IMG/VR virus record: IMGVR_UViG_3300045988_157568
Direction: 5' to 3' (one strand)
Source of the DNA: a virus
Length of the DNA stretch: 64,000 bases
The notes below the pieces were generated by a model that did not search any database, had not been told where the DNA came from, and saw only the letters and a program-made list of their open reading frames with translations. The position numbers and the translations under genes were made by a program. This document shows positions 759 to 62,565 of the stretch, piece after piece (position 1 is the stretch's first letter; each line of letters opens with the position of its first letter).

Positions 759-1329
759 CTTTCTCTATCCTTTCTGTATAACCGATATGTGTTTTACCTT
801 GAAATTTATTAAAGTACCAATCTATATCTTCCTTAAATTCTTGAATAGCTTCGTTGCATTTTTCTGCTGATGAAAAATAAACTTGACTTATCATATCATA
901 CTCAAAGGATTGTGCTCTTGCTACATAGGTACATCTATCATAGCCTGTTTCCTTTGAAATTACCCACCTAATTTTAGGTTGTTCATTTGGGTTATATGTC
1001 GATATTGGTTTATCATTAAGGGCTTGCCATTGCAATAATTTTAAATATATCATTACTGCTTTTAACACCTTATTGGCAAACTGCTTATTATTAAAATAAT
1101 TTGCGTAGCTGTATAATGTATCAGCGTCAATAGTATGGTTATCTACCGACTTCTTAACAGCTAAATCTATATAAAAATAAGGTTGGTTGTAAGCAACTCT
1201 ACTAAAGCCTGTATCATATAGAGGTTTACCCTCTGCTGACAACCCTAAATAGTTTGCTTGCTCGTCTGTTATGTCTAAGCGTGTTATGCTTCCGTCCTTT
1301 GCCTTTACTGATATTTCCATTGAAATCAC
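748..1329 (-). CDS. hypothetical protein, tandem paralog of 186-758
   Basis: 193-aa ORF with the same architecture as 186-758. The start is uncertain because it overlaps the tail of the methyltransferase frame. Confidence 0.55.
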   Translation of the reverse strand: MISMEISVKAKDGSITRLDITDEQANYLGLSAEGKPLYDTGFSRVAYNQPYFYIDLAVKKSVDNHTIDADTLYSYANYFNNKQFANKVLKAVMIYLKLLQWQALNDKPISTYNPNEQPKIRWVISKETGYDRCTYVARAQSFEYDMISQVYFSSAEKCNEAIQEFKEDIDWYFNKFQGKTHIGYTERIEKDEI

Positions 1330-1999
1330 CTACTCTCTTTATTCCTTTAAAGATGTGCTTTATAACTTCTATTGTCCAACCGTCACCACACATATTGTAT
1401 ATGTGAGAGTCAGCTACATTCATCTTGTACCAATCAGGTATTGTCTGCAACTTCCTATACTCGTTTGGAGTAAGTTTTCTACACCTGTTTCTATCCAAAA
1501 TTTTCTTCTGTGTATTTCCACCCCGACAGCCTGTCAAAGTAGGACTTTTAAAATTGATGTTATTAACTCTTTTCAGAATATCGTGTCCATTAATATGTAA
1601 GGTGGCTATAACTTTCTTACTGTTACCGTGAAAGTCAAAACCCTGCTCATAGAAATATTTTTCAGGCACATCTTTATCCATTATATCCTTTATTACCTGC
1701 TTACTGGCTAAAGGTAATGGAGCGATAGGTATGTTTGTCCAATACAAACGCTTTCTATCTTGTGCCGAAAATATATTGCTGTCAATTAAACGAGGTTTAA
1801 CACCAATCACTTTTGTTATCTTAGCTATATCAGTCTTATTATTACTGTCCACATTCTCAATCATAAAGAGAACGTCAGGGTTATTATTCGCCTTTATCCA
1901 TTGTAGTATAGCATTACAGGGATAGAATAACCACGATACACCTTTTAAGCCATTATTATATTCTTTCGCCCTGCCGTTGCCTTTGAAAGTGAACAGCAA
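1226..1999 (-). CDS. dcm: DNA (cytosine-5)-methyltransferase, C-terminal fragment (motifs VI-X)
   Basis: Contains FMIENV (ENV motif VI), QDRKR, TLTGCRGG and GDGWT (motif X-like GNGW). The frame differs from the N-terminal fragment. Confidence 0.7.
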   Translation of the reverse strand: MLFTFKGNGRAKEYNNGLKGVSWLFYPCNAILQWIKANNNPDVLFMIENVDSNNKTDIAKITKVIGVKPRLIDSNIFSAQDRKRLYWTNIPIAPLPLASKQVIKDIMDKDVPEKYFYEQGFDFHGNSKKVIATLHINGHDILKRVNNINFKSPTLTGCRGGNTQKKILDRNRCRKLTPNEYRKLQTIPDWYKMNVADSHIYNMCGDGWTIEVIKHIFKGIKRVGDFNGNISKGKGRKHNTLRHNRRASKLFRVVSRG

Positions 2000-2262
2000 G
2001 GACTTCCGAATATAACTAAATCAATCTTAGGTAGGTTACTTAGAGCGTCACCTTTGACAATAAGTTCGTCATCAACTTCTTCAACAAAGTTCATAACGTC
2101 ACCTATTTGTATGGTATCAGGGAAGTTATCTTGTGTAACCTTTATTGCGTTCTTATCAATTTCACTTGCAAAATATTTATTGATTTTGTAACCGCTTTCA
2201 ATTAAAGCAATCTGTCCACAACTCATTCCGTCACACAAGCTCAACACATTTAAAGGTTTCAT
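1945..2262 (-). CDS. dcm: DNA (cytosine-5)-methyltransferase, N-terminal fragment (motifs I-IV)
   Basis: Contains LSLCDGMSCGQIAL (motif I-like) and FGSPC (catalytic PC, motif IV). The frame terminates 17 codons after PC, while the rest of the enzyme continues in another frame. Confidence 0.7.
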   Translation of the reverse strand: MKPLNVLSLCDGMSCGQIALIESGYKINKYFASEIDKNAIKVTQDNFPDTIQIGDVMNFVEEVDDELIVKGDALSNLPKIDLVIFGSPCCSLSKATAGRKNIIMA

Positions 2263-3059: not shown

Positions 3060-3707
3060 TTAGCTCAAATCACTTTTTAACTTTAGTGTTCTCAACAACT
3101 TTCCGTCAGCAATATCGTTTACCTTGTCAGTAGGTATATCAAGTAGATACTGTATTTGTGATAGCATAACAAGAACATCTGAAAATTTCTCTGTTATGCT
3201 ATCCATTACTGTGTAAAATGGCTTTCTTACTGGTTGTCCTTTGCCTTTATAACGCATATACTTTGTTAAAGATTGAGTTAATTCGCTCATTTCTTCAATA
3301 AGTAAAAATACCTGTGCGTCACCGTATGTATCAGCAATTTCTCTCCACCCTTTTGCAGATGTCAAACCAATAAGTCCTAACGGATAAGTGTGTTTAGTTA
3401 AGTCCGAAGAGTAGATAGGGTTATCACCATACTTTGACTTAACACATTCTACTTCTGTTTCAAGCAATTCATATTTCTTATGAAACACGTCTGGCTTACA
3501 AGGGTAGTATTCGCCACGCAATCCTCTTATAATGTAATCACCGACATTTGCTCGCATATCACCTTCAAGTGTTCTTATAACTGGAACACCTTCGACAATA
3601 TAGATATTTGTCTTTTCAGGTGTATTTGCAAACTGAATAATCTCTTGCATATTATCACCTGTCCACTCCATAGCATTTATTTCACAAGGTTTCGTTTTAT
3701 ACTTCAT
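3060..3707 (-). CDS. MazG-like nucleotide pyrophosphohydrolase with N-terminal phage domain
   Basis: The C-terminal half carries the paired acidic helices LIEEMSELTQSL and EKFSDVLVMLSQIQYLLDI typical of MazG/all-alpha NTP-PPases. The N-terminal ~85 aa are an unrelated small domain. Confidence 0.55.
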   Translation of the reverse strand: MKYKTKPCEINAMEWTGDNMQEIIQFANTPEKTNIYIVEGVPVIRTLEGDMRANVGDYIIRGLRGEYYPCKPDVFHKKYELLETEVECVKSKYGDNPIYSSDLTKHTYPLGLIGLTSAKGWREIADTYGDAQVFLLIEEMSELTQSLTKYMRYKGKGQPVRKPFYTVMDSITEKFSDVLVMLSQIQYLLDIPTDKVNDIADGKLLRTLKLKSDLS

Positions 3708-3725
3708 CTATAATCTTCCTTTCTA

Positions 3726-5237: not shown

Positions 5238-5897
5238 TTACTCTCCATTCTTTTTAATTCCTGCAACCGTAAAATCGTCCAATGAAGGGTGATTTACCTT
5301 TGTATACATAGCACACACTATATTCCACAAAAATGCAATGTTATGTGGTTCATCTTCCAATCCCACCATTACCTTTGTTAAGTGCCTTAAAGCACTGTCT
5401 ATAAAGCTATGTAAAGGTAAACCTTTTTCCCAGTTTCTTGCTTCATACTTCAATGCCCCATTCTCATAATGTTTTGCCAACTCCCAAAGAGTGTTAAAGA
5501 AAAAGGTAGTGTACTCACTGTTAAGTGCCTGTATGCTATCCAACTTTACACCCGACTTATAAGCGTTTAGAATTACGCCTAAATGAAACGTTGACAGTAG
5601 CGTTTGATAACTACCCAATTTTCTGAACAAATTTAATTGAAAATATATCTGTGCTATAATTCTTACTTCAAGCTCATCTAACTCCCCCTTTTTTGGTGGA
5701 CGTTCTTCAATAAGCAATGTCCTAAAAATCGCATTATAGTCATCAACATTAAGTTGAGTAACTATATTTGATATTTCTGCTAAAGGTAATAAGTCAAACC
5801 TACCTTTACCCTGTACAATTTCTCTCATTGCACCTGTTTCAAAATGTGTTCTTTCACCACTATCTTGAAGTGGTGTTTTAGCTTTTATCTTATTCAT
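5238..5897 (-). CDS. all-alpha NTP pyrophosphohydrolase-like protein (dATP/dGTP diphosphohydrolase-type N- and C-terminal motifs)
   Basis: DSGERTHFETGAMREIVQGKGRFDLLP at the N-terminus and RNWEKGLPLHSFIDSALRHL...EDEPHNIAFLWN near the C-terminus match, from memory, the widespread phage DSGKR..F.TGA.RD...GKGR.DL / RNWEKG...DSA.RH signature. About 95 aa are inserted between them. Confidence 0.5.
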   Translation of the reverse strand: MNKIKAKTPLQDSGERTHFETGAMREIVQGKGRFDLLPLAEISNIVTQLNVDDYNAIFRTLLIEERPPKKGELDELEVRIIAQIYFQLNLFRKLGSYQTLLSTFHLGVILNAYKSGVKLDSIQALNSEYTTFFFNTLWELAKHYENGALKYEARNWEKGLPLHSFIDSALRHLTKVMVGLEDEPHNIAFLWNIVCAMYTKVNHPSLDDFTVAGIKKNGE

Positions 5898-52204: not shown

Positions 52205-54844
52205 TTATCTTCTCCTTCTCGCTGTAAAGCCTGAAATAGCTCTATAAAAAGATTGCTCATTTCTTGACTTACCCATTAAACTATCTCTGTTTACTGTTTC
52301 CGTTTCATTTACTACACCTTCGTCCATACAACCCCACACTGCCAAACCCCAACTGTCACAATTACCTGTTACAGCTATTTTGTCATTTCTACGAGTAACT
52401 ATATAACCATTGTCTACATTTACGCACCAAACTTTTCCGTTATAGTCTGTTACATTTACCTCTTTTATTCGTGTGCAATCACCTTGCATTAAATAGCAAT
52501 TATACATTTCGCCACTTTTGCGTATAGAGGTTTTTATTCCGCATTTGTGTGCTAACTCTTGAAAATCACGAGCTAAATCATAGCTGGCTGTATGATAAGT
52601 GTTCCTTGTAATTGTACCGTCACCATACATAAGAGTATCTAAGAGCAATCTTAACTGACGTAATGAAAAATCATTTAACCATTTTCGAGGTATTCTGTGT
52701 ATTCCGTCAGCAAGTAAACTGTCAAATAAGGCATTATCTTTCTTGTGGTACACCCAGTAAGTTAGTCCGTCTTTACGAGTATAAATGTATGGGTTTAAGC
52801 CTAATTTTTTAACCATAGCTTGTATTTCACTATATTTTAAACTTTTTATTGATTGACCGAAACAGTATCTTTTTGAATTATATCTCTTATCAAAATTTAT
52901 CCAACCCTCTGTTATAAACCAGCCACACTGCTTAATCAACTCGTCACTTATTGGGTAATCAGCCTTATCTTGAATAGGTGCAACTGGTATCTGCAAAGTA
53001 TTGTATCTTTGTTCATTAGGCATTGCAAAAAGTGACTGTGATAACATATCTTTATAGCAACCACTGTTTCTATGCTTAACTAACATCTTATGATTTTCTG
53101 TTACCTTTAGAGCTAAATCCTTTGACTTAAATTCGTACATTTTGCCACAATAATCTTTGTGTATTATTTTAGTTGGTTTCCTATATACAATTTTTCCGTC
53201 AACAACACTTGCCACTAAAGTATCAGAGGTCATTTTATCATAAGTTATAAAGCCTTTATCAGTAAGTATTTCTGTATCAAGAGATAAACAAAAATCGTCG
53301 TGAGCGTTCTTCTCGTCAGGGTGAGATACCACAAGTTGTGAGCCCCTGTAATCTTTCTGCAACTCACCTAATTGCTCAATAAATTTATGATATTCTTCTG
53401 ACTTCAATACTTCTTCGGACGCTGGCACTCTTGCTCTACCACTTGAAATCTCCGTTTCAAGATTTTTGTACATTTCAGACTTACTCTTTGTAGTAAAAAT
53501 ATAAGGTATAACCTCACAATTTAAGTTAGCTCTAAGCCTATGTGATATACTTGCTTCTCTTGTAGCGTCACATACAACCTTAGCTAACTTAAAGTGTGAT
53601 AAAAAGTCCATAATCATATAATATTGTTCTTCATAGTCAGGCATATTTGATATTTTTAGCCAACTCTTTATATAAGTATTATATGTCTTATAAACCATAG
53701 TCTCACCAGTTTCAGGGTCAACCCTTTCATCAAATTGCAAAGGTTGTGTCCAATCAACTTCTACGATTGTGATAACGGTATCATCACCCTTACCACCTAA
53801 GTCTATACCTGCAACGTGCGTTCTTGACTTGTCATAAAGAGATACGTCCAAAAGCGGTTCAAGATTATTTTGTTCAAACTGCTCTATATCAATAAACATA
53901 CCTCTTTCCAATATCCACTTTAGCTTATAAGACATTTGGTACTCGTCTGACTTCTCACCCAAACTTCTCTTTTCACCTTCAATGTACTTTGCATACCAAG
54001 GGTTATATTTTGCGGCTACATCACAATCGTACTCAAAATGGTTTCGCACTCTTGTTTCACCATTATCATATTCAAGTTTGTTACGCTGAATTGCGTCATA
54101 GAAATTACCTTTAAAGGTTGTCGCTGTTCCGATTTTAACCTTTGTAGCATTATAAGCAGCACCCATAGGGTGGATAGACTTAGTAATCTTGTAATTACTA
54201 ATATCTTGACACTCCTCGCAGATAATTAATTTAAAGGACTCACCTTCGATTGATGAACCGTCACTGGCTGAAATAGCCGTAACGAATGAGCCATTACTTA
54301 GAGAACACGTCTGTCCATTTGACGTGGTAAACTGTAAATTAAAATCAGGGTCATTTAAGACTGCTTCTGCTGACGGACTTAGAAGTCTACTACGAATACG
54401 GTTGTATGTAATTTGTGCCTGTCTTTGTGACGGAGCAAATATACCAATCCATAAACCGTCCCTAAACGGTTGCAGTCGCTTATCATTTGCAAACATAGGC
54501 ATATTTGCAAGTTGTGGTAGCAAAATCATCATACCACCTGATGTATCTGAAATTGTTTCTGACTTACCACTCTGTCTTGCAAATAAAGCTGTTATTTCTG
54601 CACCGTCATTTGTTAAAACGGAGCGAATAACTCTTTTTGAAAATTGTTCCTGATAGGGATATAGTGTTCTTCCCGAATATACTTCAATGAAATTAAACAC
54701 TAAGTTCACCAATTCAGATGTTGTAACACTGCCTGCTAATGTGTATTTCAGATTATCAGTCACTTCTAAGTAAGTGAGGAATAACCAGTAAAATATACAC
54801 TTTATATCAATCCATAAGCTATGCAAAACCTTTCTCCATTTCAT
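52205..54844 (-). CDS. terL: terminase large subunit interrupted by an intein
   Basis: Walker A-like FARQSGKSE, Walker B-like KLIICEECQ, and nuclease-domain acidic motifs AGIDLGGKGDDT and NAHDDF|CDSWGLAVW. Confidence 0.85.
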   Translation of the reverse strand: MKWRKVLHSLWIDIKCIFYWLFLTYLEVTDNLKYTLAGSVTTSELVNLVFNFIEVYSGRTLYPYQEQFSKRVIRSVLTNDGAEITALFARQSGKSETISDTSGGMMILLPQLANMPMFANDKRLQPFRDGLWIGIFAPSQRQAQITYNRIRSRLLSPSAEAVLNDPDFNLQFTTSNGQTCSLSNGSFVTAISASDGSSIEGESFKLIICEECQDISNYKITKSIHPMGAAYNATKVKIGTATTFKGNFYDAIQRNKLEYDNGETRVRNHFEYDCDVAAKYNPWYAKYIEGEKRSLGEKSDEYQMSYKLKWILERGMFIDIEQFEQNNLEPLLDVSLYDKSRTHVAGIDLGGKGDDTVITIVEVDWTQPLQFDERVDPETGETMVYKTYNTYIKSWLKISNMPDYEEQYYMIMDFLSHFKLAKVVCDATREASISHRLRANLNCEVIPYIFTTKSKSEMYKNLETEISSGRARVPASEEVLKSEEYHKFIEQLGELQKDYRGSQLVVSHPDEKNAHDDFCLSLDTEILTDKGFITYDKMTSDTLVASVVDGKIVYRKPTKIIHKDYCGKMYEFKSKDLALKVTENHKMLVKHRNSGCYKDMLSQSLFAMPNEQRYNTLQIPVAPIQDKADYPISDELIKQCGWFITEGWINFDKRYNSKRYCFGQSIKSLKYSEIQAMVKKLGLNPYIYTRKDGLTYWVYHKKDNALFDSLLADGIHRIPRKWLNDFSLRQLRLLLDTLMYGDGTITRNTYHTASYDLARDFQELAHKCGIKTSIRKSGEMYNCYLMQGDCTRIKEVNVTDYNGKVWCVNVDNGYIVTRRNDKIAVTGNCDSWGLAVWGCMDEGVVNETETVNRDSLMGKSRNEQSFYRAISGFTARRRR
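52361..53290 (-). mobile_element. terL intein (310 aa) with LAGLIDADG endonuclease
   Basis: Begins CLSLDTEILTDKG directly after HDDF and ends IAVTGN, followed by Cys. Internal motifs are CGWFITEGWI and LLDTLMYGDGT. Confidence 0.8.
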
Positions 54845-56908: not shown

Positions 56909-58072
56909 TTATTCTTCTTCACTTTCATACTCGCCGCCGCAAATTTCGCAGATAAATGTATCATCTTCTTCATTGTATTGGAGTGGCTGACCGCAGCAGT
57001 AAGGCTCACCGTTTAGTGTATAAGGTGCACCTTCTTCAACTTCGTCACCTTCATCATCAATGAATAGCATTTTTAGTTGAAGATATGCGTCAAACAATTC
57101 ATCATTATCCATATCGTCAATCTCATCTGCTGACTCATCATAGTATGCCTTTAGAGCCTTTTTCATTGTGACTGCCTTTAGCTTACCGTCATCATATTTC
57201 TTTTCAAGCATAGATTTTAGAGCTTTTAGTGCCTTTTTACGAGCTGGTTTGATGTTAGGGTTACTTAGGTCATTTACATCTTCTTCGTCACCTTCATCTT
57301 CAACATCTTCATCTTCGTAATCATCATCTTCATAATCGTCATCTTCAGGTTCTTCTTTATTTTCACCTTCGCCATTGATTGCAATAGCACCGTCTTGTAC
57401 TGCCTTGATTAGCTTGTTGATTAAAGCCTGACGCTTACCCTTTGCGGAGATACCTGCTTCAACAAGTAAGTCTGCAATTTCTTCCGTTTCCATTTCGGAT
57501 ACTCTATCTTCAATTTCTTCCGCAAGACTTTCTTCATCATCAATAGGCTCTGCTTCAACATCTTCTTCGCCGTCATCTTCGTCTGTATCATCTTCATCTT
57601 CAACATCTTCAAGTGTTGTTTCTTCTTCGTCATCTTCGTCAAAATCTTCTTCAATCTGTTCTGACGCACCTAAAATGTTGTCAATTAAAGTTTCTCTGTC
57701 ACCCTTTGCTGATACACCGACTTCTTTGGCAATCTTTTTTAGCTCATTATACTTTTTGCCGTCAAGAGCTTCTTTTGTATAAATATCGTCTGTTTCATCA
57801 GATGTTTCGTCAACTTCGTCAACTTCGTCAACTTCTTGCTTTTCAACCTTTGACTTCTTAGTTGTCGACTTCTTAACAGGTACAACCTTTTCAGATGTTT
57901 TTGGTGTTTCCAATGTACCAGCTGTTTCCAATGTACCAACTGTTTCAGCCAACTCTGTCATTTCAAATACAGGTAGTGCCATAAGCATATCTGTATATGC
58001 GTCAAAGAAGTCTGCCATTGCCTTCTTCATATCCAACACCGATTTAATTAATTGTTCCTTATTGTTTGCCAT
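56909..58072 (-). CDS. highly acidic protein with two SAP/Rho-N-like helix motifs and a C-terminal zinc ribbon
   Basis: ATG at 58072 after AAGGAGG. It has long D/E runs, YNELKKIAKEVGVSAKGDRETLIDNIL and IADLLVEAGISAKGKRQALINKLI, and a C-terminal CCGQPL...CEICGG. Confidence 0.6.
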   Translation of the reverse strand: MANNKEQLIKSVLDMKKAMADFFDAYTDMLMALPVFEMTELAETVGTLETAGTLETPKTSEKVVPVKKSTTKKSKVEKQEVDEVDEVDETSDETDDIYTKEALDGKKYNELKKIAKEVGVSAKGDRETLIDNILGASEQIEEDFDEDDEEETTLEDVEDEDDTDEDDGEEDVEAEPIDDEESLAEEIEDRVSEMETEEIADLLVEAGISAKGKRQALINKLIKAVQDGAIAINGEGENKEEPEDDDYEDDDYEDEDVEDEGDEEDVNDLSNPNIKPARKKALKALKSMLEKKYDDGKLKAVTMKKALKAYYDESADEIDDMDNDELFDAYLQLKMLFIDDEGDEVEEGAPYTLNGEPYCCGQPLQYNEEDDTFICEICGGEYESEEE

Positions 58073-58143
58073 AATAAACAACCTCCTTGATTTTTTATAT
58101 TTTTATTTTCTTTGATAACGTATTTCGTTATCACTATGACTAC

Positions 58144-58819: not shown

Positions 58820-59422
58820 TTAATACTCCTTATAAAACACCCTTGTCATTATTATAAAACAATTTTCTCTCCACTTATTCTTGCGTACATTCTTTTTCAA
58901 GTTCTCTGTTGCTTCTTCATAAGTGTTAAAAGTGTTCACTACTTCGTAATGCTCACCGTCTGACATATTATATTTCCTTGCCAAAACATAGTCCTTTTGC
59001 TTGATATTTTTCTTATCCACACATAAAATGTCCGTATCACGCTCTGAAATCGCCAAAATCAAGTCTTTTGTACTTACAAGGTCTAATTGTAAGCTAAAGT
59101 CTTTTACTTTCTCAAATCGGCGTTTTTGCCCGAATACATTAAGCTCCTGCTTGTCCTTAGGTACTGGTGATAGAAATTCTAAAAGGTCACGAGTCCAAAC
59201 ATAACTCTTGCCATTTAAACTCTTATACACGACAACAGGGTTTTCAGTGGTACTGTCCATACCAATACTCATTACACGATAGTAGCCACCTTTAAAATGC
59301 CGTACTATTGGCTCGGATTGTAAGTCTACTATCAATTCCACAACCGACTTGCCATAGTAAGCTTCAATCTCATCAATCAATTCTTGTGTTTTACTGTCCT
59401 TTTTCTTAGTTAATTCGTCCAT
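58820..59422 (-). CDS. DUF1653-like domain protein
   Basis: ATG at 59422 after AAGGAGG. RHFKGGYYRVMSIG...VVVYKSLNGKSYVWTRDLLEF matches the DUF1653 signature (HYKGG.Y...VvY..l....W.RP...F) as I remember it. Confidence 0.55.
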   Translation of the reverse strand: MDELTKKKDSKTQELIDEIEAYYGKSVVELIVDLQSEPIVRHFKGGYYRVMSIGMDSTTENPVVVYKSLNGKSYVWTRDLLEFLSPVPKDKQELNVFGQKRRFEKVKDFSLQLDLVSTKDLILAISERDTDILCVDKKNIKQKDYVLARKYNMSDGEHYEVVNTFNTYEEATENLKKNVRKNKWRENCFIIMTRVFYKEY

Positions 59423-59581
59423 AATTTCCTCCTTATAGCATAAATAGCTTACCAGCATTGTGCCGATAAGCTATCTATGAAACGACTATTCATACTTTTA
59501 GTGGGGGAAGTACAAATATTAAATCTGTATAGCTCCCTGCAAGGTGTGACCTTGTTAAACAGACTCTCTGTCAGAAAGCAT

Positions 59582-60622
59582 ATACAAGCTATGGTTAGAT
59601 AGCTTGTATTGTGTCGAAAGGATTGTGAATAAATCACAAATAATGATAAAGCCAGTAGATTACATCAACCACTTAATCAATTCCATATGTAACTCTAAAC
59701 GAGGTGTAGGAATTCTCGGGTCTACTTAGGAGAGTACTCTTGGGAATTACTCTCCCATAAACCTATTAAATTCAAAGGAGGTGCAATTACCATATGGAGT
59801 AACCGCACATTGTCAAAATGACAAACTGAACCTTGCTATGTTAATATGTATAGAGGACTTATTGAAAAACAAGCAAGTAATATACCAAACCATTTAATCA
59901 AAAGTTATTAAACTTAGCAAAGTTCAGCGTTTTCATAAGCTCTATGAAAACTATTTAACAATTACTCATTGTGAAATGAGGAGTTGTTTGTTCTGCACTG
60001 TTTCACGAACAGTGCAAGTGGAAATCAGTGACTTGAGTAGTTCTATTGTAAGTACCGTTTAATACAATACTCATCTACTCTGCCGCCCCAAACGGTTTTA
60101 AGGGACATATATGCTGTCACTGAATTGGTGGGTATTGCAGGTGTCGAACCTGCTCCAAAACAAAAGCTATTCTTCTGAAATGTAGTGCCACCACGAATAC
60201 CCATATGGTGGTGAATAACCGCCAAACTCACCACCATATTAAAATAATATAACGAAAAACAAACATTTTGCCATACAATCGGAATTAAACAAAATGCTTA
60301 CGTTCAAGCGTGGTTACACAAGAAGTCAAAGCAACCACGCAAGAAACTTGTGCCCCCATTCGGCTATAATGGGTATACGATTTTATTGTTGACCGAACGG
60401 GGACTGGCTACACGATTGAGAATTGCACTCAATTACACTTTGAGAGGTCATTGCGTTCAGTGGTATTACTATCCCACTCAATGAATGATGTGCTTGTGTA
60501 CTCTAAGCGTGTAATATGTGAAAATCTATGAGAAAGTGTTTAGGTGTGAAACCGCAACGAACACCACGGAAGAAATATTCGAGCTACAACACCTGAAACA
60601 AGGAACGTCATCTCTCAATGAC
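59582..60622 (-). ncRNA. candidate large structured non-coding RNA or giant structured leader (about 1 kb, boundaries approximate)
   Basis: It has no SD-preceded ORF. A consensus promoter at 60629-60657 fires into it. There are more than 12 helices, several with G-U pairs only in the minus sense. A tRNA-like module is embedded. A possible 3' hairpin lies at 59582-59609. Confidence 0.5.
60126..60202 (-). tRNA. tRNA-like element with encoded CCA and non-canonical anticodon and D regions
   Basis: Minus strand: GGGTATT...AATACCC 7-bp acceptor stem, T arm GCAGG-TTCGACA-CCTGC, discriminator A, CCA. A 17-nt anticodon-arm equivalent, CAGAA-GAATAGC-TTTTG, lacks U33. Confidence 0.5.
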
Positions 60623-60628
60623 AAGCTC

Positions 60629-60657
60629 ATTATAACATCACTTAACACACTTGTCAA
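60629..60657 (-). promoter_or_regulatory. sigma-70-type promoter TTGACA-17-TATAAT with TGn extension, directed into the ORF-free region
   Basis: Minus strand: TTGACA (60657-60652), a 17-nt spacer ending TGT, TATAAT (60634-60629). It overlaps the last codons of the 60638-60856 ORF. Confidence 0.65.
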
Positions 60658-60856
60658 TACTTTTTTTAATTTTTTTCAAAATTTTTTTCTTTGGAGGGGC
60701 TGAAACCCCTTTTTCCACGCTTAAATCAGTGCCTTTATGTATCATATCCCTTAAAATCAAAGGTATCTCACTTAAAGGCTTGTCTTTCAGTTCAGGATAG
60801 TCAATCAAAAGATTATCTACACAATCCTTAACAAGCGTCAATGCTTTACTTTCCAC
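60638..60856 (-). CDS. hypothetical small protein
   Basis: 72-aa ORF with a Lys-rich C-terminus. The start is uncertain (GTG). Confidence 0.45.
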   Translation of the reverse strand: MESKALTLVKDCVDNLLIDYPELKDKPLSEIPLILRDMIHKGTDLSVEKGVSAPPKKKILKKIKKSIDKCVK

Positions 60857-61188
60857 CGTATCTCACCCCCTATTCTGTCTATATCTTTCAAGTAGCATAT
60901 GACAACTTTGATTAAATCGTCAAGCAACTCGTAATGATTATTCAAGTTCGTAATTGTCGTTGTGTTATTTTCAGGTGAGTCCAACTCTCTGACTTTTAAA
61001 CAATAACACTCATCAAAATCGTTATACATTGCCATAATTGCAATGCTTAGATACTTCTTCAACGTCTTGTTATTTGCAACAAGCACTAAAAGGTCATCTT
61101 CACGATTACTCGTCCAACTTAAATCGTTATGATTACTCTGAATTGCAGTCACTCGGCTCTTTGCAATTTCCAGTATGTCATACTTCAT
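60838..61188 (-). CDS. hypothetical protein
   Basis: ATG at 61188 (MKYDILEIAK) lies about 10 nt after AAAGGAG. The track start at 61242 falls inside the promoter. Confidence 0.5.
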   Translation of the reverse strand: MKYDILEIAKSRVTAIQSNHNDLSWTSNREDDLLVLVANNKTLKKYLSIAIMAMYNDFDECYCLKVRELDSPENNTTTITNLNNHYELLDDLIKVVICYLKDIDRIGGEIRWKVKH

Positions 61189-61242: not shown

Positions 61243-61288
61243 GTGGTAATTCTCCTCATTACAAAATTTTTAGCTTCTCATATCACTT

Positions 61289-61351
61289 CACGCACACGCC
61301 CACGCACATACAGGCGTACACACGCCTACACACGCACACACGCACGTGCGT
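61289..61351. repeat. GC-rich (CA/CG)n purine-pyrimidine alternating tract ending in the 12-bp palindrome ACGCACGTGCGT
   Basis: The sequence is CACGCACACGCCCACGCACATACAGGCGTACACACGCCTACACACGCACACACGCACGTGCGTA. It contains a 23-nt perfect R/Y alternation, a palindrome at 61340-61351, and an AGGCGT/ACGCCT hairpin. Confidence 0.6.
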
Positions 61352-61358
61352 AACTACG

Positions 61359-61442
61359 TTATATTGTATTATATATTAATATATTATAATATATAATTAT
61401 ATATAATTAATTATATATAATTATAATATTTATAATTATATA
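61359..61442. repeat. 84-nt almost pure A/T tract (one G) with tandem 14-bp palindromes AATTATATATAATT x2
   Basis: The palindromes lie at 61395-61408 and 61409-61422. The tract is candidate DNA-unwinding-element-like sequence. Confidence 0.55.
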
Positions 61443-61512
61443 CAGCTATTAATTGTTCACTTAATTAATACATAAATGTATTAATAAAGTTCACCGAGTA
61501 TTTTTGCATTTT

Positions 61513-61577
61513 TGTGCAAATGCACATCATTGGTTATTATATACACTTTTGCTCTCTGTTTTTGTGCAATATGTACA
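61513..61577. promoter_or_regulatory. two operator-like near-palindromes related to the RHH-promoter palindrome
   Basis: TGTGCAAATGCACA (61513-61526) and TGTGCAATATGTACA (61563-61577) are each preceded by TTT, as is TGTGCATATGCACA at 11352. A TATAAT on the minus strand (61536-61541) lies between them. Confidence 0.4.
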
Positions 61578-61619
61578 AGCTAAATTCCTTCGGAATTGGG
61601 GTTCTTATTTGGGTTAGTT

Positions 61620-61694
61620 TCGCTCCGCTCAACAACCCAAAACGACTCGTGCGTTCCGCTTCGCTCCACTTCGAGAATTACACTCGCTCCGCTC
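61620..61694. repeat. direct repeats of TCGCTCCGCTC in a GC-richer island
   Basis: Exact 11-mers at 61620-61630 and 61684-61694, with a permuted copy (TCCGCTTCGCTCC) at 61655-61667. The first copy sits in the loop of the TTTGGGTT/AACCCAAA inverted repeat (61608-61641). Confidence 0.5.
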
Positions 61695-61882
61695 GTTTAC
61701 CACCTAAAATCACTCTTTTTAACTGGTAATTTAATCGTGGTTTTTAACTGCTATTTAAGGTCTTTAGGGAGGTATTTTAGTTGCATTTTCTTAATAAAAC
61801 TACTACACTAAATTTCCATATTTTGTGTCATTTTTAAATTCTACATCACTCCCTCAATATTTATTTTGGCGATATTTTTGAA

Positions 61883-61997
61883 AGTGACTTTTAGCCATAA
61901 AATAGTGACTTTTTGTACGCTATTGTGACTACATCAATGTGACATTTATTGTGACTTATGTGACTACATCTCTGTCATTGTGACTACATCTCTGTCA
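61883..61997. repeat. seven GTGAC-core iteron-like repeats including a 19-nt unit repeated in tandem at a 20-bp period
   Basis: GTGAC at 61883, 61904, 61924, 61938, 61950, 61959 and 61979. GTGACTACATCTCTGTCAT is repeated at 61959-61977 and 61979-61997. TTGTGACTACATC occurs at 61922 and 61977 (TATGTGACTACATC at 61956). Confidence 0.6.
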
Positions 61998-62109
61998 TAC
62001 TAATTAGCTGGTCGTTGGGAGGGTGAAAACCATATCACTCCCTCAATTTTATTCCGCAACTGTAAGATACCACACACACGACAGGTGGGAAGTGACTGTA
62101 AATTAATGG

Positions 62110-62395
62110 TGGGGGTGGTATTATATGTTATGTTACAAGTTCATTACATTTTTGTTACGCTTTTGTTATGTATTTGTTAAGAAAAAGTTACATTTCAATA
62201 TTACATTTTTATTAATAATTTGCTGCAATTATATTACAATTCAAAAGAAAATTTTTTGTAAGAATTTTACAAGAAAAAAATTGTAAAATAAAATCATTTC
62301 ATTATTTTAAAAATCAAATTGAAATACATTTCAAATTTAAAATTGAAATATCAAACAATATTTAATATTCCATTTCAAAAAAATCAAAAAGAAGC
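62110..62395. repeat. AT-rich region with several short repeat families
   Basis: TTTGTTA(C/T/A)G x3, TTACATTT x3, and AAATTGAAATA x2 with a TTGAAAT/ATTTCAA inverted repeat, plus TTGTAA/TTACAA pairs. Boundaries are approximate. Confidence 0.4.
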
Positions 62396-62535
62396 AGCAA
62401 AGCAGGCGGTAATATAAGCGGTTAAATAGGTGTATAAGGCAATAAATACAATTAAATATATAAGTTATATACCTATTGTAATTATTGATGTTTTAAAGGC
62501 GATTACAAGCCGTTCACAAGATACAGATTAAGCAA

Positions 62536-62565
62536 TAAAAAACGGCTATTATATAGCCGTTTTTA
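62536..62565 (-). terminator. rho-independent terminator (bidirectional shape)
   Basis: ACGGCTAT / ATAGCCGT stem with a 3-nt loop, flanked by an A-run and a T-run. It overlaps the stop of the 62549-62857 gene and closes the early operon. Confidence 0.65.

What the first reader, a model, noticed from the sequence alone, without database searches (positions are those of the whole stretch)
60126..60202. tRNA-like module with perfect acceptor stem, T arm and CCA but no usable anticodon loop, embedded in the ncRNA locus
Seen in sequence (minus strand): GGGTATT-C-GTGG-TGGCA-CTAC-ATTT-CAGAA-GAATAGC-TTTTG-TTTTGGA-GCAGG-TTCGACA-CCTGC-AATACCC-A-CCA. The 7-bp acceptor stem, the T arm (G53, T54, T55, C56, A58, C61 equivalents), discriminator A and an encoded CCA are textbook tRNA, and the total length of 77 nt is right. 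The anticodon-arm equivalent has A where U33 should be, and G32 and C38 can pair to leave a 5-nt AAUAG loop. The D arm is compact (4 bp with a 5-nt loop containing GG), with abnormal linkers of 1 nt and 4 nt. An 11-bp hairpin (60203-60239) abuts the 5' end with no spacer. Inference: this is unlikely to be a decoding tRNA. It could be an RNase P/RNase Z processing handle that cuts the long transcript into about 420-nt and about 550-nt pieces, a tRNA mimic or decoy (for example for CCA-adding or tRNA-targeting host factors), or a degenerate tRNA gene.
Basis: partly seen in the sequence, partly recalled or inferred. Interest (0 to 1): 0.65.

Follow-up and report, generated by a model that had tools for sequence, protein, structure and literature searches.

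The report
Anticodon-less tRNA mimic in gut phage
The 77-base element is a real gene for a tRNA-shaped RNA that cannot read codons; it sits in a strongly promoted non-coding operon of a human-gut phage, and only its upper half (acceptor stem, T arm, elbow) is conserved, so it probably works as a processed tRNA mimic.

Summary
Window 60202-60126 (minus strand) folds as a cloverleaf with a perfect 7-bp acceptor stem, a canonical T arm, A73 and an encoded CCA. The D arm is compact and there is no usable anticodon loop.

ARAGORN calls nothing. Rfam tRNA scores 17.6 bits against a threshold of 29. Taken alone, the element is not statistically secure; comparison with relatives makes it secure.

It lies in a roughly 1.2-kb non-coding operon with a consensus promoter (60657-60629) and a terminal hairpin before a DUF1653 gene. 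In related gut phages the same slot holds a real tRNA-Met(CAU) plus one to five aberrant tRNA-like modules.

A covariance model built only from this phage's copies finds a syntenic homologue in a relative whose neighbouring protein is about 45% identical (32.8 bits, E about 1e-7). Acceptor and T stems covary, with 97.5% of cells paired.

Among 12 population variants the stems never change. The "anticodon" loop has three alleles of different length and sequence (one 7 nt, two 6 nt; predicted apical loop 4-6 nt).

A second, 109-nt tRNA-like module (60513-60405) occupies the tRNA-Met position. Nearly all modules follow an AUAU leader.

Best reading: an RNase P-processed, non-decoding tRNA "top-half" mimic. 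Decoy or sequestration is the favoured function, but that is inference. Rivals are a pure processing signal and a decaying pseudogene. No GOLLD or ROOL match was found.

The parts
60629..60657 (-). Promoter of the non-coding operon: TTGACA, 17-nt spacer with TG, TATAAT (12 of 12 matches), preceded by an A-rich UP-like tract. The transcript is expected to start near 60622.
   Evidence: The same promoter context (GAAAAAAATTAAAAAAAGTxTTGACAA) heads the syntenic operon in L086, L088, L091, L092 and L123. blastn finds 86% identity over 59 nt to L086.
60514..60622 (-). Structured leader. It carries the conserved motif GUGUUGUA-hairpin-GGUUUC(A/G)CA (about 60593-60545), followed by ACACUUU...GAUUUUCACAUAU just before the first module.
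   Evidence: Read from the sequences and from alignment A5. In L092, L094 and L122 the same motif lies 30-60 nt upstream of tRNA-Met.
60405..60513 (-). W1, the second tRNA-like module (109 nt): AUAU|UACACGC, a 75-nt irregular core, T arm UUGAG-UGCAAUU-CUCAA, acceptor 3' strand UCGUGUA, discriminator G (A in some variants), CCA. It is the positional counterpart of tRNA-Met(CAU) in the relatives.
   Evidence: Acceptor pairing is 6 of 7. In 12 variants the stems are invariant, and changes fall only in the core and the discriminator. Rfam and ARAGORN do not detect it.
60203..60404 (-). Spacer made of hairpins. It ends in the 12-14-bp hairpin 60239-60203, whose 3' strand (...CCAUAU) abuts the tRNA-like module. 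It is the most variable part of the locus within the species, including a 12-nt insertion.
   Evidence: About 15% of columns vary, against 8.6% for the whole locus.
60126..60202 (-). W2, the finding: a 77-nt non-decoding tRNA-like RNA.
- Acceptor 5' strand: 60202-60196
- C8: 60195
- D arm GUG-GUGG-CAC: 60194-60185
- Variable 'anticodon' domain: 60184-60154
- T arm GCAGG-UUCGACA-CCUGC: 60153-60137
- Acceptor 3' strand: 60136-60130
- A73: 60129
- CCA: 60128-60126
59423..60125 (-). Highly structured trailer. It includes a terminator-like hairpin at 59609-59582 and a final hairpin at 59474-59444 directly before the ribosome-binding site (59434-59428).
   Evidence: z = -7.6. (hairpin 59609-59582). 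A compensatory U-A to C-G change at 59821/59813 and a hairpin-loop inversion at 60007-60003 occur among variants. Terminator-like hairpins sit just before the DUF1653 ribosome-binding site in the relatives.
58820..59422 (-). Downstream DUF1653 gene (200 aa; true start ATG at 59422). It was used as the synteny anchor.

Best explanation
**What it is.** The element is a tRNA-derived gene for a non-decoding tRNA-like RNA. It is one of two such modules (W1 at 60513-60405, W2 at 60202-60126) in a roughly 1.2-kb non-coding operon of a BCD7-like phage from the human gut.

**Shown:**
- The operon is the positional equivalent of a tRNA operon in related phages.
- W2 belongs to a family conserved across lineages whose neighbouring protein is only about 45% identical.
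- Selection keeps the acceptor stem, T arm, GG-containing D loop and, in most members, the CCA. The anticodon domain is free to change in length and sequence.

**Inferred mechanism:**
- The strong promoter makes one long precursor.
- RNase P cuts after the conserved (A)UAU leader, between U60203 and G60202. This leaves the upstream piece capped by the abutting hairpin.
- The 3' end is trimmed back to the encoded CCA.
- The released L-shaped RNA acts through its 'top half' (acceptor/T-arm minihelix plus elbow) as a tRNA mimic. It would engage proteins that recognise tRNA ends and elbows rather than anticodons.
- My preferred reading is a decoy or sponge for host enzymes or defence toxins that act on tRNA acceptor ends or elbows. 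That functional step is untested.
For: **Synteny**
- Every relative with upstream DNA has a 0.55-1.9-kb gap with no called gene between the same promoter and the DUF1653 gene.
- In most of them that gap holds tRNA-Met(CAU) plus aberrant tRNA-likes.
- L091 and the window lineage have no canonical tRNA at all, yet keep the promoter and the array.

**Homology and covariation**
- Model R1, built from this lineage only, finds L092 3486-3548 (32.8 bits, E = 8.7e-8), L086 5725-5771 (E = 0.006) and L094 785-857 (E = 0.007).
- 97.5% of cells pair, 8 pairs change on both sides, and slid controls give 38-52% pairing.
- The GUGGUGGC D-arm motif sits right after the acceptor strand in the window, L092 and L094 977-1116. 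The D stem changes from GUG/CAC to GCC/GGC.

**Population data**
- Of 109 variable columns in the locus, the six inside W2 fall at the loop apex (five) and at T-loop purine 57 (G to A).
- No stem position varies, while the adjoining hairpin is hypervariable.
- All three alleles keep the cloverleaf.

**Processing signal**
- AUAU precedes 15 of about 23 modules, and about 20 end in AU. The chance expectation for ATAT is about 1%, my arithmetic from about 35% GC.

**Not protein-coding**
- The overlapping 64-aa ORF is broken by 1-, 2- and 4-nt indels among the variants.
Against:
- Only three to four independent lineages carry recognisable W2 homologues. The alignment used for the pair counts was fitted to the model, which favours the structure.
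- Some family members lack an encoded CCA (L094 785-857, L086 5725-5771). A mature CCA end is therefore not universally hard-wired.
- The leader AUAU of W2 is base-paired in the abutting hairpin, which could hinder RNase P.
- Nothing identifies a binding partner. No tRNA-related enzyme or Ro60 gene was found among the roughly 30 window proteins scanned.
- Within the species, total divergence is only 1-3%, so invariance of the stems is modest evidence (1 change seen against about 5 expected from the locus average).
Confidence: 0.55

Rival explanations
1. Pure processing punctuation. The tRNA-like modules have no role as free RNAs. They exist only as RNase P recognition handles that cut the long precursor. 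The cuts would define and stabilise the flanking hairpin-rich RNAs or the 5' end of the downstream mRNA, as in MALAT1/mascRNA or mitochondrial tRNA punctuation.
For: - AUAU leaders are conserved before the modules.
- A stable hairpin lies 0-5 nt upstream of W2, of L092 3486 and of L094 785. After cleavage it would cap the upstream fragment.
- Only the top half, which is what RNase P recognises, is conserved.
- Some members lack CCA.
- The trailer is very structured (z = -7.6).
- Trailers of the relatives share a UCACAGAUG motif.
Against: - The spacers that would be the 'products' are the fastest-changing parts of the locus and differ completely in length and sequence between lineages.
- An encoded CCA blocks RNase Z in Firmicutes (established knowledge), so the modules would not define the 5' end of the trailer.
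- Arrays of up to five modules (L091) are more than punctuation needs.
Confidence: 0.25
2. Decaying pseudogene. W2 and W1 are remnants of phage tRNA genes that lost their anticodon arms. They are on the way to deletion and have no function.
For: - W1 sits exactly where the relatives have tRNA-Met and looks like a disrupted copy: a 75-nt irregular core and 6 of 7 acceptor pairs.
- The T stem of W2 (GCAGG/CCUGC) is identical to that of the L094 tRNA-Met.
- Phages gain and lose tRNAs quickly (general knowledge).
- Single-sequence tRNA scores are sub-threshold.
Against: - Decay should hit all stems equally. Instead, acceptor, T and D stems stay paired through compensatory changes across lineages and are invariant in the population, while the loop varies.
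- A perfect promoter and 1.2-1.9 kb of non-coding DNA are kept in compact phage genomes, even in the two lineages with no real tRNA left.
Confidence: 0.13
3. An unusual but functional decoding tRNA, for example anticodon AUA in the 7-nt loop GAAUAGC, or a frameshift or suppressor tRNA.
For: - In the window allele a 5-bp stem with a 7-nt loop can be drawn.
- Relatives carry tRNAs with expanded anticodon loops that still score 41-47 bits on the tRNA model.
Against: - Position 33 is A.
- In four other variants of the same species the loop is one base shorter with different letters, and the predicted apical loop is 4-6 nt.
- Homologues have a UUCG tetraloop or a 4-nt loop there.
- ARAGORN finds nothing, and RF00005 gives 17.6 bits against a threshold of 29.
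Confidence: 0.03
4. A tRNA-gene fragment that marks a phage attachment site (attP), copied from a host tRNA gene.
For: - Temperate phages often carry the 3' part of a host tRNA gene (general knowledge).
- tRNA fragments are common annotation artefacts (PMC9897764, title and abstract only).
Against: - The element is full length with both acceptor strands, not a 3' fragment.
- It lies in a promoter-driven array of similar modules.
- The nearest cultured relative is the myovirus BCD7.
- No integrase turned up among the roughly 30 window proteins scanned.
- Its 28-nt 3' end has exact matches only in this phage in IMG/VR.
Confidence: 0.02

Closest known systems
Ordinary phage tRNA operons
   Same: - Promoter-driven clusters of cloverleaf RNAs with RNase P-type leaders and encoded CCA.
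- In related phages the same operon holds a genuine tRNA-Met(CAU), plus Gly in one of them.
- The T stem of W2 equals that of the L094 tRNA-Met.
   Different: - There is no anticodon loop.
- The D arm is compact, with a 1-nt linker and C8 in place of U8.
- Scores fall below the tRNA-model threshold.
- This phage's operon contains no decoding tRNA at all.
mascRNA / MEN-beta tRNA-like RNAs (Rfam RF01684), and by analogy the tRNA-like parts of murine gammaherpesvirus 68 TMERs
   Same: - A tRNA-like RNA with an intact acceptor/T-arm top half, a GG-containing mini D arm and a reduced anticodon arm, embedded in a long non-coding transcript.
- It is the best Rfam hit, sharing the string GUGGUGGCAC.
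- In those systems RNase P cleavage at the 5' side defines a protected 3' end of the upstream RNA, and the tRNA-like RNA receives CCA but is not charged. This is established knowledge and was not tested here.
   Different: - Those are eukaryotic nuclear or herpesviral RNAs with no shared ancestry.
- The score of 23 bits is far below the gathering score of 42.5.
- Here the CCA is encoded, and the modules occur in arrays next to real tRNAs.
Phage T4 stable RNAs C and D (species 1 and 2 RNAs of the T4 tRNA cluster)
   Same: From memory of the 1970s literature: small stable RNAs co-transcribed with phage tRNAs, matured by the tRNA-processing machinery, partly tRNA-like, function still unknown.
   Different: No sequence was available here for comparison. 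A literature search in the held library found nothing usable. Treat this as a lead, not a test.
GOLLD and ROOL large phage RNAs
   Same: - They are large structured non-coding RNAs of phages and prophages, often beside tRNA islands.
- tRNAs sometimes sit in the GOLLD linker.
- One GOLLD lies downstream of a Met-tRNA (PMC12286853).
   Different: - Neither Rfam model matches the window (gathering threshold over the whole window; E <= 10 over 59300-60900), nor the largest related array at E <= 5.
- Neither reached the gathering threshold in 12 loci of the distant DUF1653 phage group.
- Neither matched at E <= 1 in the closer relatives.
- Leader and trailer differ completely in length and sequence between relatives, unlike a conserved ornate RNA.
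tRNA-like domain of tmRNA
   Same: An acceptor/T-arm top half with a reduced D region and no anticodon.
   Different: - ARAGORN finds no tmRNA.
- The pair at position 3:70 is G3-C70, not the G3-U70 needed for alanine charging.
- The two acceptor strands are 60 nt apart, with no mRNA-like domain or tag reading frame.
Bacterial Y RNA (YrlA), the tRNA-mimicking partner of Ro60
   Same: - It is a tRNA mimic with T-arm, D-arm and acceptor-like stems (PMC4201824, title and abstract).
- One distant DUF1653-carrying phage contig encodes a TROVE/Ro60 protein.
   Different: - In YrlA the RNA ends lie at the Ro-binding stem, in the anticodon-arm position, and the acceptor-like stem is closed (from memory). 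Here the ends are at the acceptor stem with CCA.
- There is no Rfam hit.
- No TROVE protein was found among the window proteins scanned.

Membership tests
Canonical tRNA (Rfam RF00005) | 7-bp acceptor stem, discriminator base, 3' CCA (encoded or added) | tested here: met
   GGGUAUU/AAUACCC pair at all 7 positions, followed by A73 and an encoded CCA.
Canonical tRNA (Rfam RF00005) | 5-bp T stem with G53-C61 and a 7-nt loop U54-U55-C56-R57-A58 | tested here: met
   GCAGG-UUCGACA-CCUGC. The only population change in the arm is R57 G to A.
Canonical tRNA (Rfam RF00005) | D arm with U8, a 2-nt linker, a 3-4-bp stem and a 7-11-nt loop carrying A14 and G18-G19 | tested here: not met
   C8 with a 1-nt linker. 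The arm is a 3-bp stem with a 4-nt GUGG loop, or a 5-bp stem with a 3-nt loop. Only the GG is kept.
Canonical tRNA (Rfam RF00005) | 5-bp anticodon stem with a 7-nt loop, U33 and purine 37, constant within a species | tested here: not met
   A at position 33. The loop has three alleles (7, 6 and 6 nt) among 12 variants, and the predicted apical loops are 4-6 nt.
Canonical tRNA (Rfam RF00005) | Detected by tRNA finders or reaches the family's gathering score | tested here: not met
   ARAGORN finds 0 genes. RF00005 gives 17.6 bits against 29. tRNAscan-SE itself was not available.
tmRNA | tRNA-like domain with G3-U70, plus an mRNA-like domain with a tag peptide | tested here: not met
   ARAGORN's tmRNA search is negative. 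The pair is G3-C70, and no internal reading frame or large insert is present.
GOLLD / ROOL | Match to the conserved ornate core (Rfam models) | tested here: not met
   There is no hit at the gathering score over the window. There is no hit at E <= 10 over 59300-60900 or at E <= 5 over the 1.9-kb array of L091.
mascRNA/menRNA-type tRNA-like RNA (RF01684) | Reaches the family's gathering score; vertebrate nuclear lncRNA context | tested here: not met
   23 bits against 42.5, E = 0.085, in a phage context. The resemblance is one of shape and likely processing, not of membership.
YrlA / bacterial Y RNA | RNA ends in a Ro60-binding stem; encoded next to a Ro60 (TROVE) gene | tested here: not met
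   The ends are at the acceptor stem. No Rfam hit. No TROVE domain among about 30 window proteins scanned; the window's proteins were not all scanned.
Proposed family: anticodon-less tRNA-like RNAs of BCD7-like gut phage tRNA operons | Located between the conserved promoter and the DUF1653 gene, on the same strand | tested here: met
   True of the window, L086, L088, L091, L092, L094/95/96, L122 and L123.
Proposed family: anticodon-less tRNA-like RNAs of BCD7-like gut phage tRNA operons | Covarying acceptor and T stems, a GG-bearing mini D arm, and a variable domain in place of the anticodon arm | tested here: met
Proposed family: anticodon-less tRNA-like RNAs of BCD7-like gut phage tRNA operons | Expressed, cut by RNase P at the predicted site, stable, CCA-ended, not aminoacylated | not testable with these tools

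The most novel reading that the evidence does not exclude
These phages carry a dedicated, highly expressed operon of anticodon-less tRNA 'top-half' mimics. The mimics would act as RNA decoys against host factors that attack or use tRNA acceptor ends and elbows, for example toxins that modify the CCA end, or tRNA-processing and quality-control nucleases. That would be an RNA-based counter-defence class distinct from nuclease-resistant decoding tRNAs. The hypervariable loop and the changing number of modules would then reflect an arms race.
Probability: 0.2. Interest if true: 0.85.

Novelty: new variant of a known kind. Interest (0 to 1): 0.55.

Why it matters
Why phages carry tRNA genes has been debated for decades. 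Recent work ties them to escape from tRNA-cleaving defences (PMC10264068).

This locus offers a cleaner case. A phage lineage has lost every decoding tRNA from its tRNA operon, yet it keeps the strong promoter and tRNA-shaped RNAs in which only the non-decoding half is conserved. That separates "tRNA as shape" from "tRNA as decoder" in a natural system, and the idea can be tested directly by end mapping, RNase P assays, pull-downs and deletion in a cultured relative.

There is also a practical point. Standard tRNA finders miss the whole family, so 1-2-kb "empty" gaps in gut-phage genomes may hide such arrays.

Tried and rejected
- ARAGORN and Rfam (gathering and E-value modes) on the window and on the relatives found no tRNA, tmRNA, GOLLD, ROOL or other family for the element.
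- blastn/megablast of the locus and of 20 kb around it against 50,697 phage records gave no match. The nearest cultured phage, BCD7, is syntenic but has no such locus.
- The exact 28-mer and the promoter 28-mer in IMG/VR matched only the same phage, plus one unrelated GC-rich phage that shares the promoter string.
- The degenerate pattern GTGGTGGCAC..CAGGTTYGAC in IMG/VR gave 12 extra hits. All were chance matches in coding DNA.
- The first DUF1653 scan of IMG/VR returned 78 distant loci, a group of mostly 45-90-kb phage contigs. ARAGORN found no tRNA in the 60 loci scanned, and a locus-wide blastn found no homology to the non-coding locus.
- Scans with the protein alignment found only the same species in JGI/ENA metagenomes, only distant Clostridia MAG hits in bacterial genomes, and nothing new in IMG/VR.
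- blastn of the L092 operon against phages matched only through its ordinary tRNA-Met. Two fecal contigs that I followed up were unrelated.
- Partner-protein search: the conserved 390-aa SAP-domain protein has only a sub-threshold S4-like TyrRS C-terminal hit and no solved relative. I dropped it.
- I considered and rejected selenocysteine- or pyrrolysine-type tRNA. The compact D arm and 1-nt linker are reminiscent, but there is no UCA or CUA anticodon, no 8-bp acceptor stem and no long variable arm.
Full report
**1. The observation**

RNAfold returns a cloverleaf: a 7-bp acceptor stem, a compact D arm, a long arm in the anticodon position and a T arm. Energy is -25.9 kcal/mol, z = -2.88, and 2 of 200 shuffles fold as well. 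The same fold appears when the whole 1048-nt non-coding RNA is folded. The hairpin that abuts the 5' end is strong (z = -5.7).

Standard detectors do not accept the element. ARAGORN finds no tRNA or tmRNA anywhere in the 64 kb. Nothing in the window reaches an Rfam gathering score. In a sensitive scan of 59300-60900 the best hits are mascRNA/menRNA (23 bits, threshold 42.5, E = 0.085) and tRNA (17.6 bits, threshold 29, E = 2). A loose acceptor-plus-T-arm pattern occurs 7 times in the window against about 4.6 in shuffles.

On its own sequence the element is therefore suggestive, not proven.

**2. Context**

All genes in the window run on the minus strand. The window is a tailed phage with a terminase, an ATP-dependent ligase and a 1986-aa ORF in the tape-measure position by synteny with BCD7. 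Its terminase is 53% identical to that of Bacillus phage BCD7, and gene order around it matches. There is no nucleotide match to any of 50,697 phage records.

The element lies in a 1.4-kb stretch without credible ORFs. The stretch begins with a perfect TTGACA-17-TGnTATAAT promoter at 60657-60629. It ends at the DUF1653 gene, whose true start is the ATG at 59422.

The RNA is far more structured than shuffled controls: z = -5.1 for the 5' 420 nt and z = -7.6 for the 3' 551 nt. The 64-aa ORF that overlaps the element is interrupted by 1-, 2- and 4-nt indels in natural variants.

**3. Relatives**

Near-identical copies occur in two IMG/VR contigs and in about a dozen human-gut metagenome contigs. 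One IMG/VR contig is a 91.5-kb assembly whose two ends overlap, so it is circular. The copies are 96.6-99.4% identical over the locus.

More distant relatives were reached through the DUF1653 protein, at 38-54% identity to the window's protein. Their DNA was then fetched. Every relative that has upstream DNA shows the same architecture:
- the same A-rich promoter context;
- a gap of 0.55-1.9 kb with no called gene;
- a terminator-like hairpin just before the DUF1653 ribosome-binding site.

In five lineages the gap holds a genuine tRNA-Met(CAU) scoring 58-62 bits. It also holds cloverleaf-like modules that the detectors miss or score poorly:
- Two tRNAs with expanded anticodon loops in L088.
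- A "tRNA-Stop" with an oversized loop in L092.
- Minihelix-like modules in L086 and L122.
- At least five modules in the 1.86-kb gap of L091, which has no canonical tRNA and no Rfam hit.

The "ncRNA locus" is thus the positional equivalent of a phage tRNA operon.

**4. Homologues of the finding itself**

Three lineages have the string (C)GUGGUGGC directly after the 5' acceptor strand of a module that ends in A-CCA:
- the window;
- L092 3486-3548: GCAGAAC GUGGUGGCAC GAGCUAUUUCGAUAGUAG UCAGG UUUGACU CCUGA GUUCUGC A CCA;
- L094 977-1116, with a roughly 95-nt branched insert.

To test homology without circularity, I built a covariance model from four variants of the window lineage only. I searched 264 kb of related and unrelated loci with it. 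It finds L092 3486-3548 at 32.8 bits (E = 8.7e-8). It then finds the L086 minihelix (E = 0.006) and L094 785-857 (E = 0.007). The last of these has an acceptor stem like W2's (GGGUAAU/GUUGCCC), a 5-bp D arm with a CGG loop, and a 5-bp arm with a 4-nt loop, but no CCA.

On the resulting alignment 97.5% of cells pair against 81.4% in shuffles (0 of 500 shuffles reach it). Eight pairs change on both sides (1 of 500). Sliding the partners drops pairing to 38-52%.

One caveat applies: the alignment is fitted to the model. The D stem also changes from GUG/CAC to GCC/GGC in L094 977-1116, while the GUGG loop stays.

**5. Population variation**

Across 12 variants the locus has 109 variable columns of 1262. 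Six lie inside the 77-nt element. Five are at the apex of the "anticodon" arm, and one is a G to A change at T-loop purine 57. No stem position varies.

The loop has three alleles: GAAUAGC, AAUAAU and AAAUAU. All three still give the cloverleaf, with apical loops of 4-6 nt.

The adjoining hairpin and spacer are the most variable part of the locus, at about 15% of columns, including a 12-nt insertion. Elsewhere in the trailer a U-A pair becomes C-G (59821/59813) and a hairpin loop is inverted (60007-60003).

A loop whose length and letters change within a species cannot be an anticodon loop.

**6. A second module**

MAFFT aligned window 60450-60401 with the 3' halves of the relatives' tRNA-Met genes. 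A relaxed scan then showed a 109-nt module, W1, at 60513-60405. Its layout is AUAU|UACACGC, a 75-nt irregular core, UUGAG-UGCAAUU-CUCAA, UCGUGUA, G (or A), CCA.

W1 follows the same conserved leader motif (GUGUUGUA...GGUUUCxCA...ACACUUU...AUAU) that precedes tRNA-Met in L092, L094 and L122. It is therefore the positional counterpart of tRNA-Met, now without a proper anticodon arm. Its stems are invariant in the population, and its core is variable.

The expected pieces are roughly:
- a 109-nt leader;
- W1, 109 nt;
- a 202-nt spacer;
- W2, 77 nt;
- a trailer of about 680 nt.

**7. Processing signal**

Of about 23 modules in these loci, real tRNAs included, 15 are preceded by AUAU and about 20 by xxAU. 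Chance expectation for ATAT at this base composition is about 1% (my arithmetic). From established work on bacterial RNase P, a U at -1 and an A-rich single-stranded leader are favoured. This is background knowledge and was not tested here.

A stable hairpin lies 0-5 nt upstream of W2, of L092 3486 and of L094 785. After cleavage the upstream fragment would end in a hairpin. The parallel is the MALAT1/mascRNA arrangement.

Because the CCA is encoded, RNase Z is an unlikely 3' nuclease here, given the established CCA anti-determinant. Exonucleolytic trimming is more likely.

**8. What it most likely does**

The following points are shown:
- The element has a tRNA origin.
- It is not a decoder.
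- It belongs to a conserved family.
- Selection acts on the top half only.
- The promoter and the array are retained in two lineages that have no real tRNA.

RNase P maturation to a stable, CCA-ended, L-shaped RNA is inferred.

The function is the weakest step. I favour a mimic or decoy that engages proteins recognising the acceptor/T-arm minihelix and the elbow. The modules carry the full set of tRNA maturation signals, occur in arrays, and outlast the decoding tRNAs. The spacers they would "release" evolve fastest, which argues against them being the products.

The main rival is pure RNase P punctuation. A decaying pseudogene, an odd decoding tRNA and an attP fragment are less likely, for the reasons given under each rival.

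**9. Comparison with known systems**

The element is not a member of tRNA (RF00005), tmRNA, GOLLD, ROOL, mascRNA or YrlA by the tests listed in the membership table. In shape and likely processing it resembles mascRNA-type tRNA-like RNAs. In genomic setting it resembles the stable non-tRNA RNAs of the T4 tRNA cluster, a comparison I make from memory only.

GOLLD and ROOL share the "large phage RNA beside tRNAs" setting (PMC12286853), but no similarity was found.

I rate it a new variant of a known kind: a phage-encoded, anticodon-less tRNA mimic family in a tRNA operon.

**10. Limits**

- No expression data could be obtained.
- Only a handful of lineages carry the family.
- The host is unknown; the only bacterial hits are distant DUF1653 genes in Clostridia MAGs.
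- tRNAscan-SE was not available.
- About 27 kb of the phage genome lies outside the window and was not searched for tRNA-related enzymes.

Noticed in passing
window 60405-60513 (-): A second, 109-nt tRNA-like module (W1). It has an AUAU leader, 6 of 7 acceptor pairs, the T loop UGCAAUU, discriminator G or A, and CCA. It sits where the relatives have tRNA-Met(CAU). It shares the 10-mer CUCAAAGUGU with the odd tRNA at L088 2435-2510.
   Followed up: partly
window 61243-62548: A second gap of about 1.3 kb with no minus-strand ORF of 40 aa or more. It is very AT-rich, with direct repeats: ATGACAGAGATGTAGTCACA twice, further GTAGTCACA copies, long (ATATAATTAT)-like runs and GTGCGTGTG repeats. It looks like an origin of replication or a regulatory or terminal region.
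   Followed up: no
L088 2356-2434, L091 2528-2599 / 2680-2745 / 2793-2915, L094 977-1116, L122 598-668 / 806-857, window 60421-60427: Many of the aberrant modules share an unusual T loop, UGCAAnU, with G where position 55 is normally U. Several of these have UAG rather than GG in the D region. This may be a compensating change in the elbow contact.
   Followed up: no
L091 ~3590-3670, L092 ~3640-3720, L094 ~1120-1180, L122 ~875-930, L124 ~1-50: The trailers of five relatives share a motif: UACAGAxAU on one side and UCACAGAUG on the other side of a stem. The 8-mer CACAGATG occurs in 5 of 10 loci and in none of 20 shuffles. The window's trailer has only a simple hairpin with UACAGAU (about 59528).
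   Followed up: partly
window 60003-60007 and 59813/59821: Among natural variants one hairpin loop is exactly inverted (CGUGA to UCACG) with the stem kept. Another hairpin has a compensatory U-A to C-G change. This is direct evidence that the trailer's hairpins matter, or that template switching occurs at palindromes.
   Followed up: partly
L090 10589-10616 (IMGVR_UViG_3300035191_000030): An unrelated, GC-rich phage contig carries the identical 28-nt A-rich tract plus -35 box (TTGAAAAAAATTAAAAAAAGTcTTGACA) in front of a protein-coding gene.
   Followed up: no
L125 1-1283: A distant phage contig that carries DUF1653 encodes a TROVE (Ro60-like) protein about 2 kb upstream. Ro60 partners are tRNA-mimicking Y RNAs. 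No tRNA or Y RNA was detected there.
   Followed up: partly
window 5238-5897 (-), 1226-2262 (-): One ORF has the N-terminal domain of dATP/dGTP diphosphohydrolase (E = 7e-15). A C5 cytosine DNA methylase is split over two overlapping ORFs. Together with DUF1653, which is fused to dCTP deaminase in Clostridia, this points to a nucleotide-pool or DNA-modification module.
   Followed up: no
window 52205-54844 (-): The terminase ORF is 879 aa, but only residues 36-531 align to the BCD7 terminase. The homologue in L086 carries intein and LAGLIDADG domains, so an intein or fused extra domain is likely here too.
   Followed up: no
window 56909-58081 (-): A conserved 390-aa SAP-domain protein lies a few genes downstream of the operon in all relatives. 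It has a sub-threshold hit to the S4-like C-terminal tRNA-binding domain of tyrosyl-tRNA synthetase (E = 2.8e-4). It could be an RNA-binding partner, but this is unproven.
   Followed up: partly
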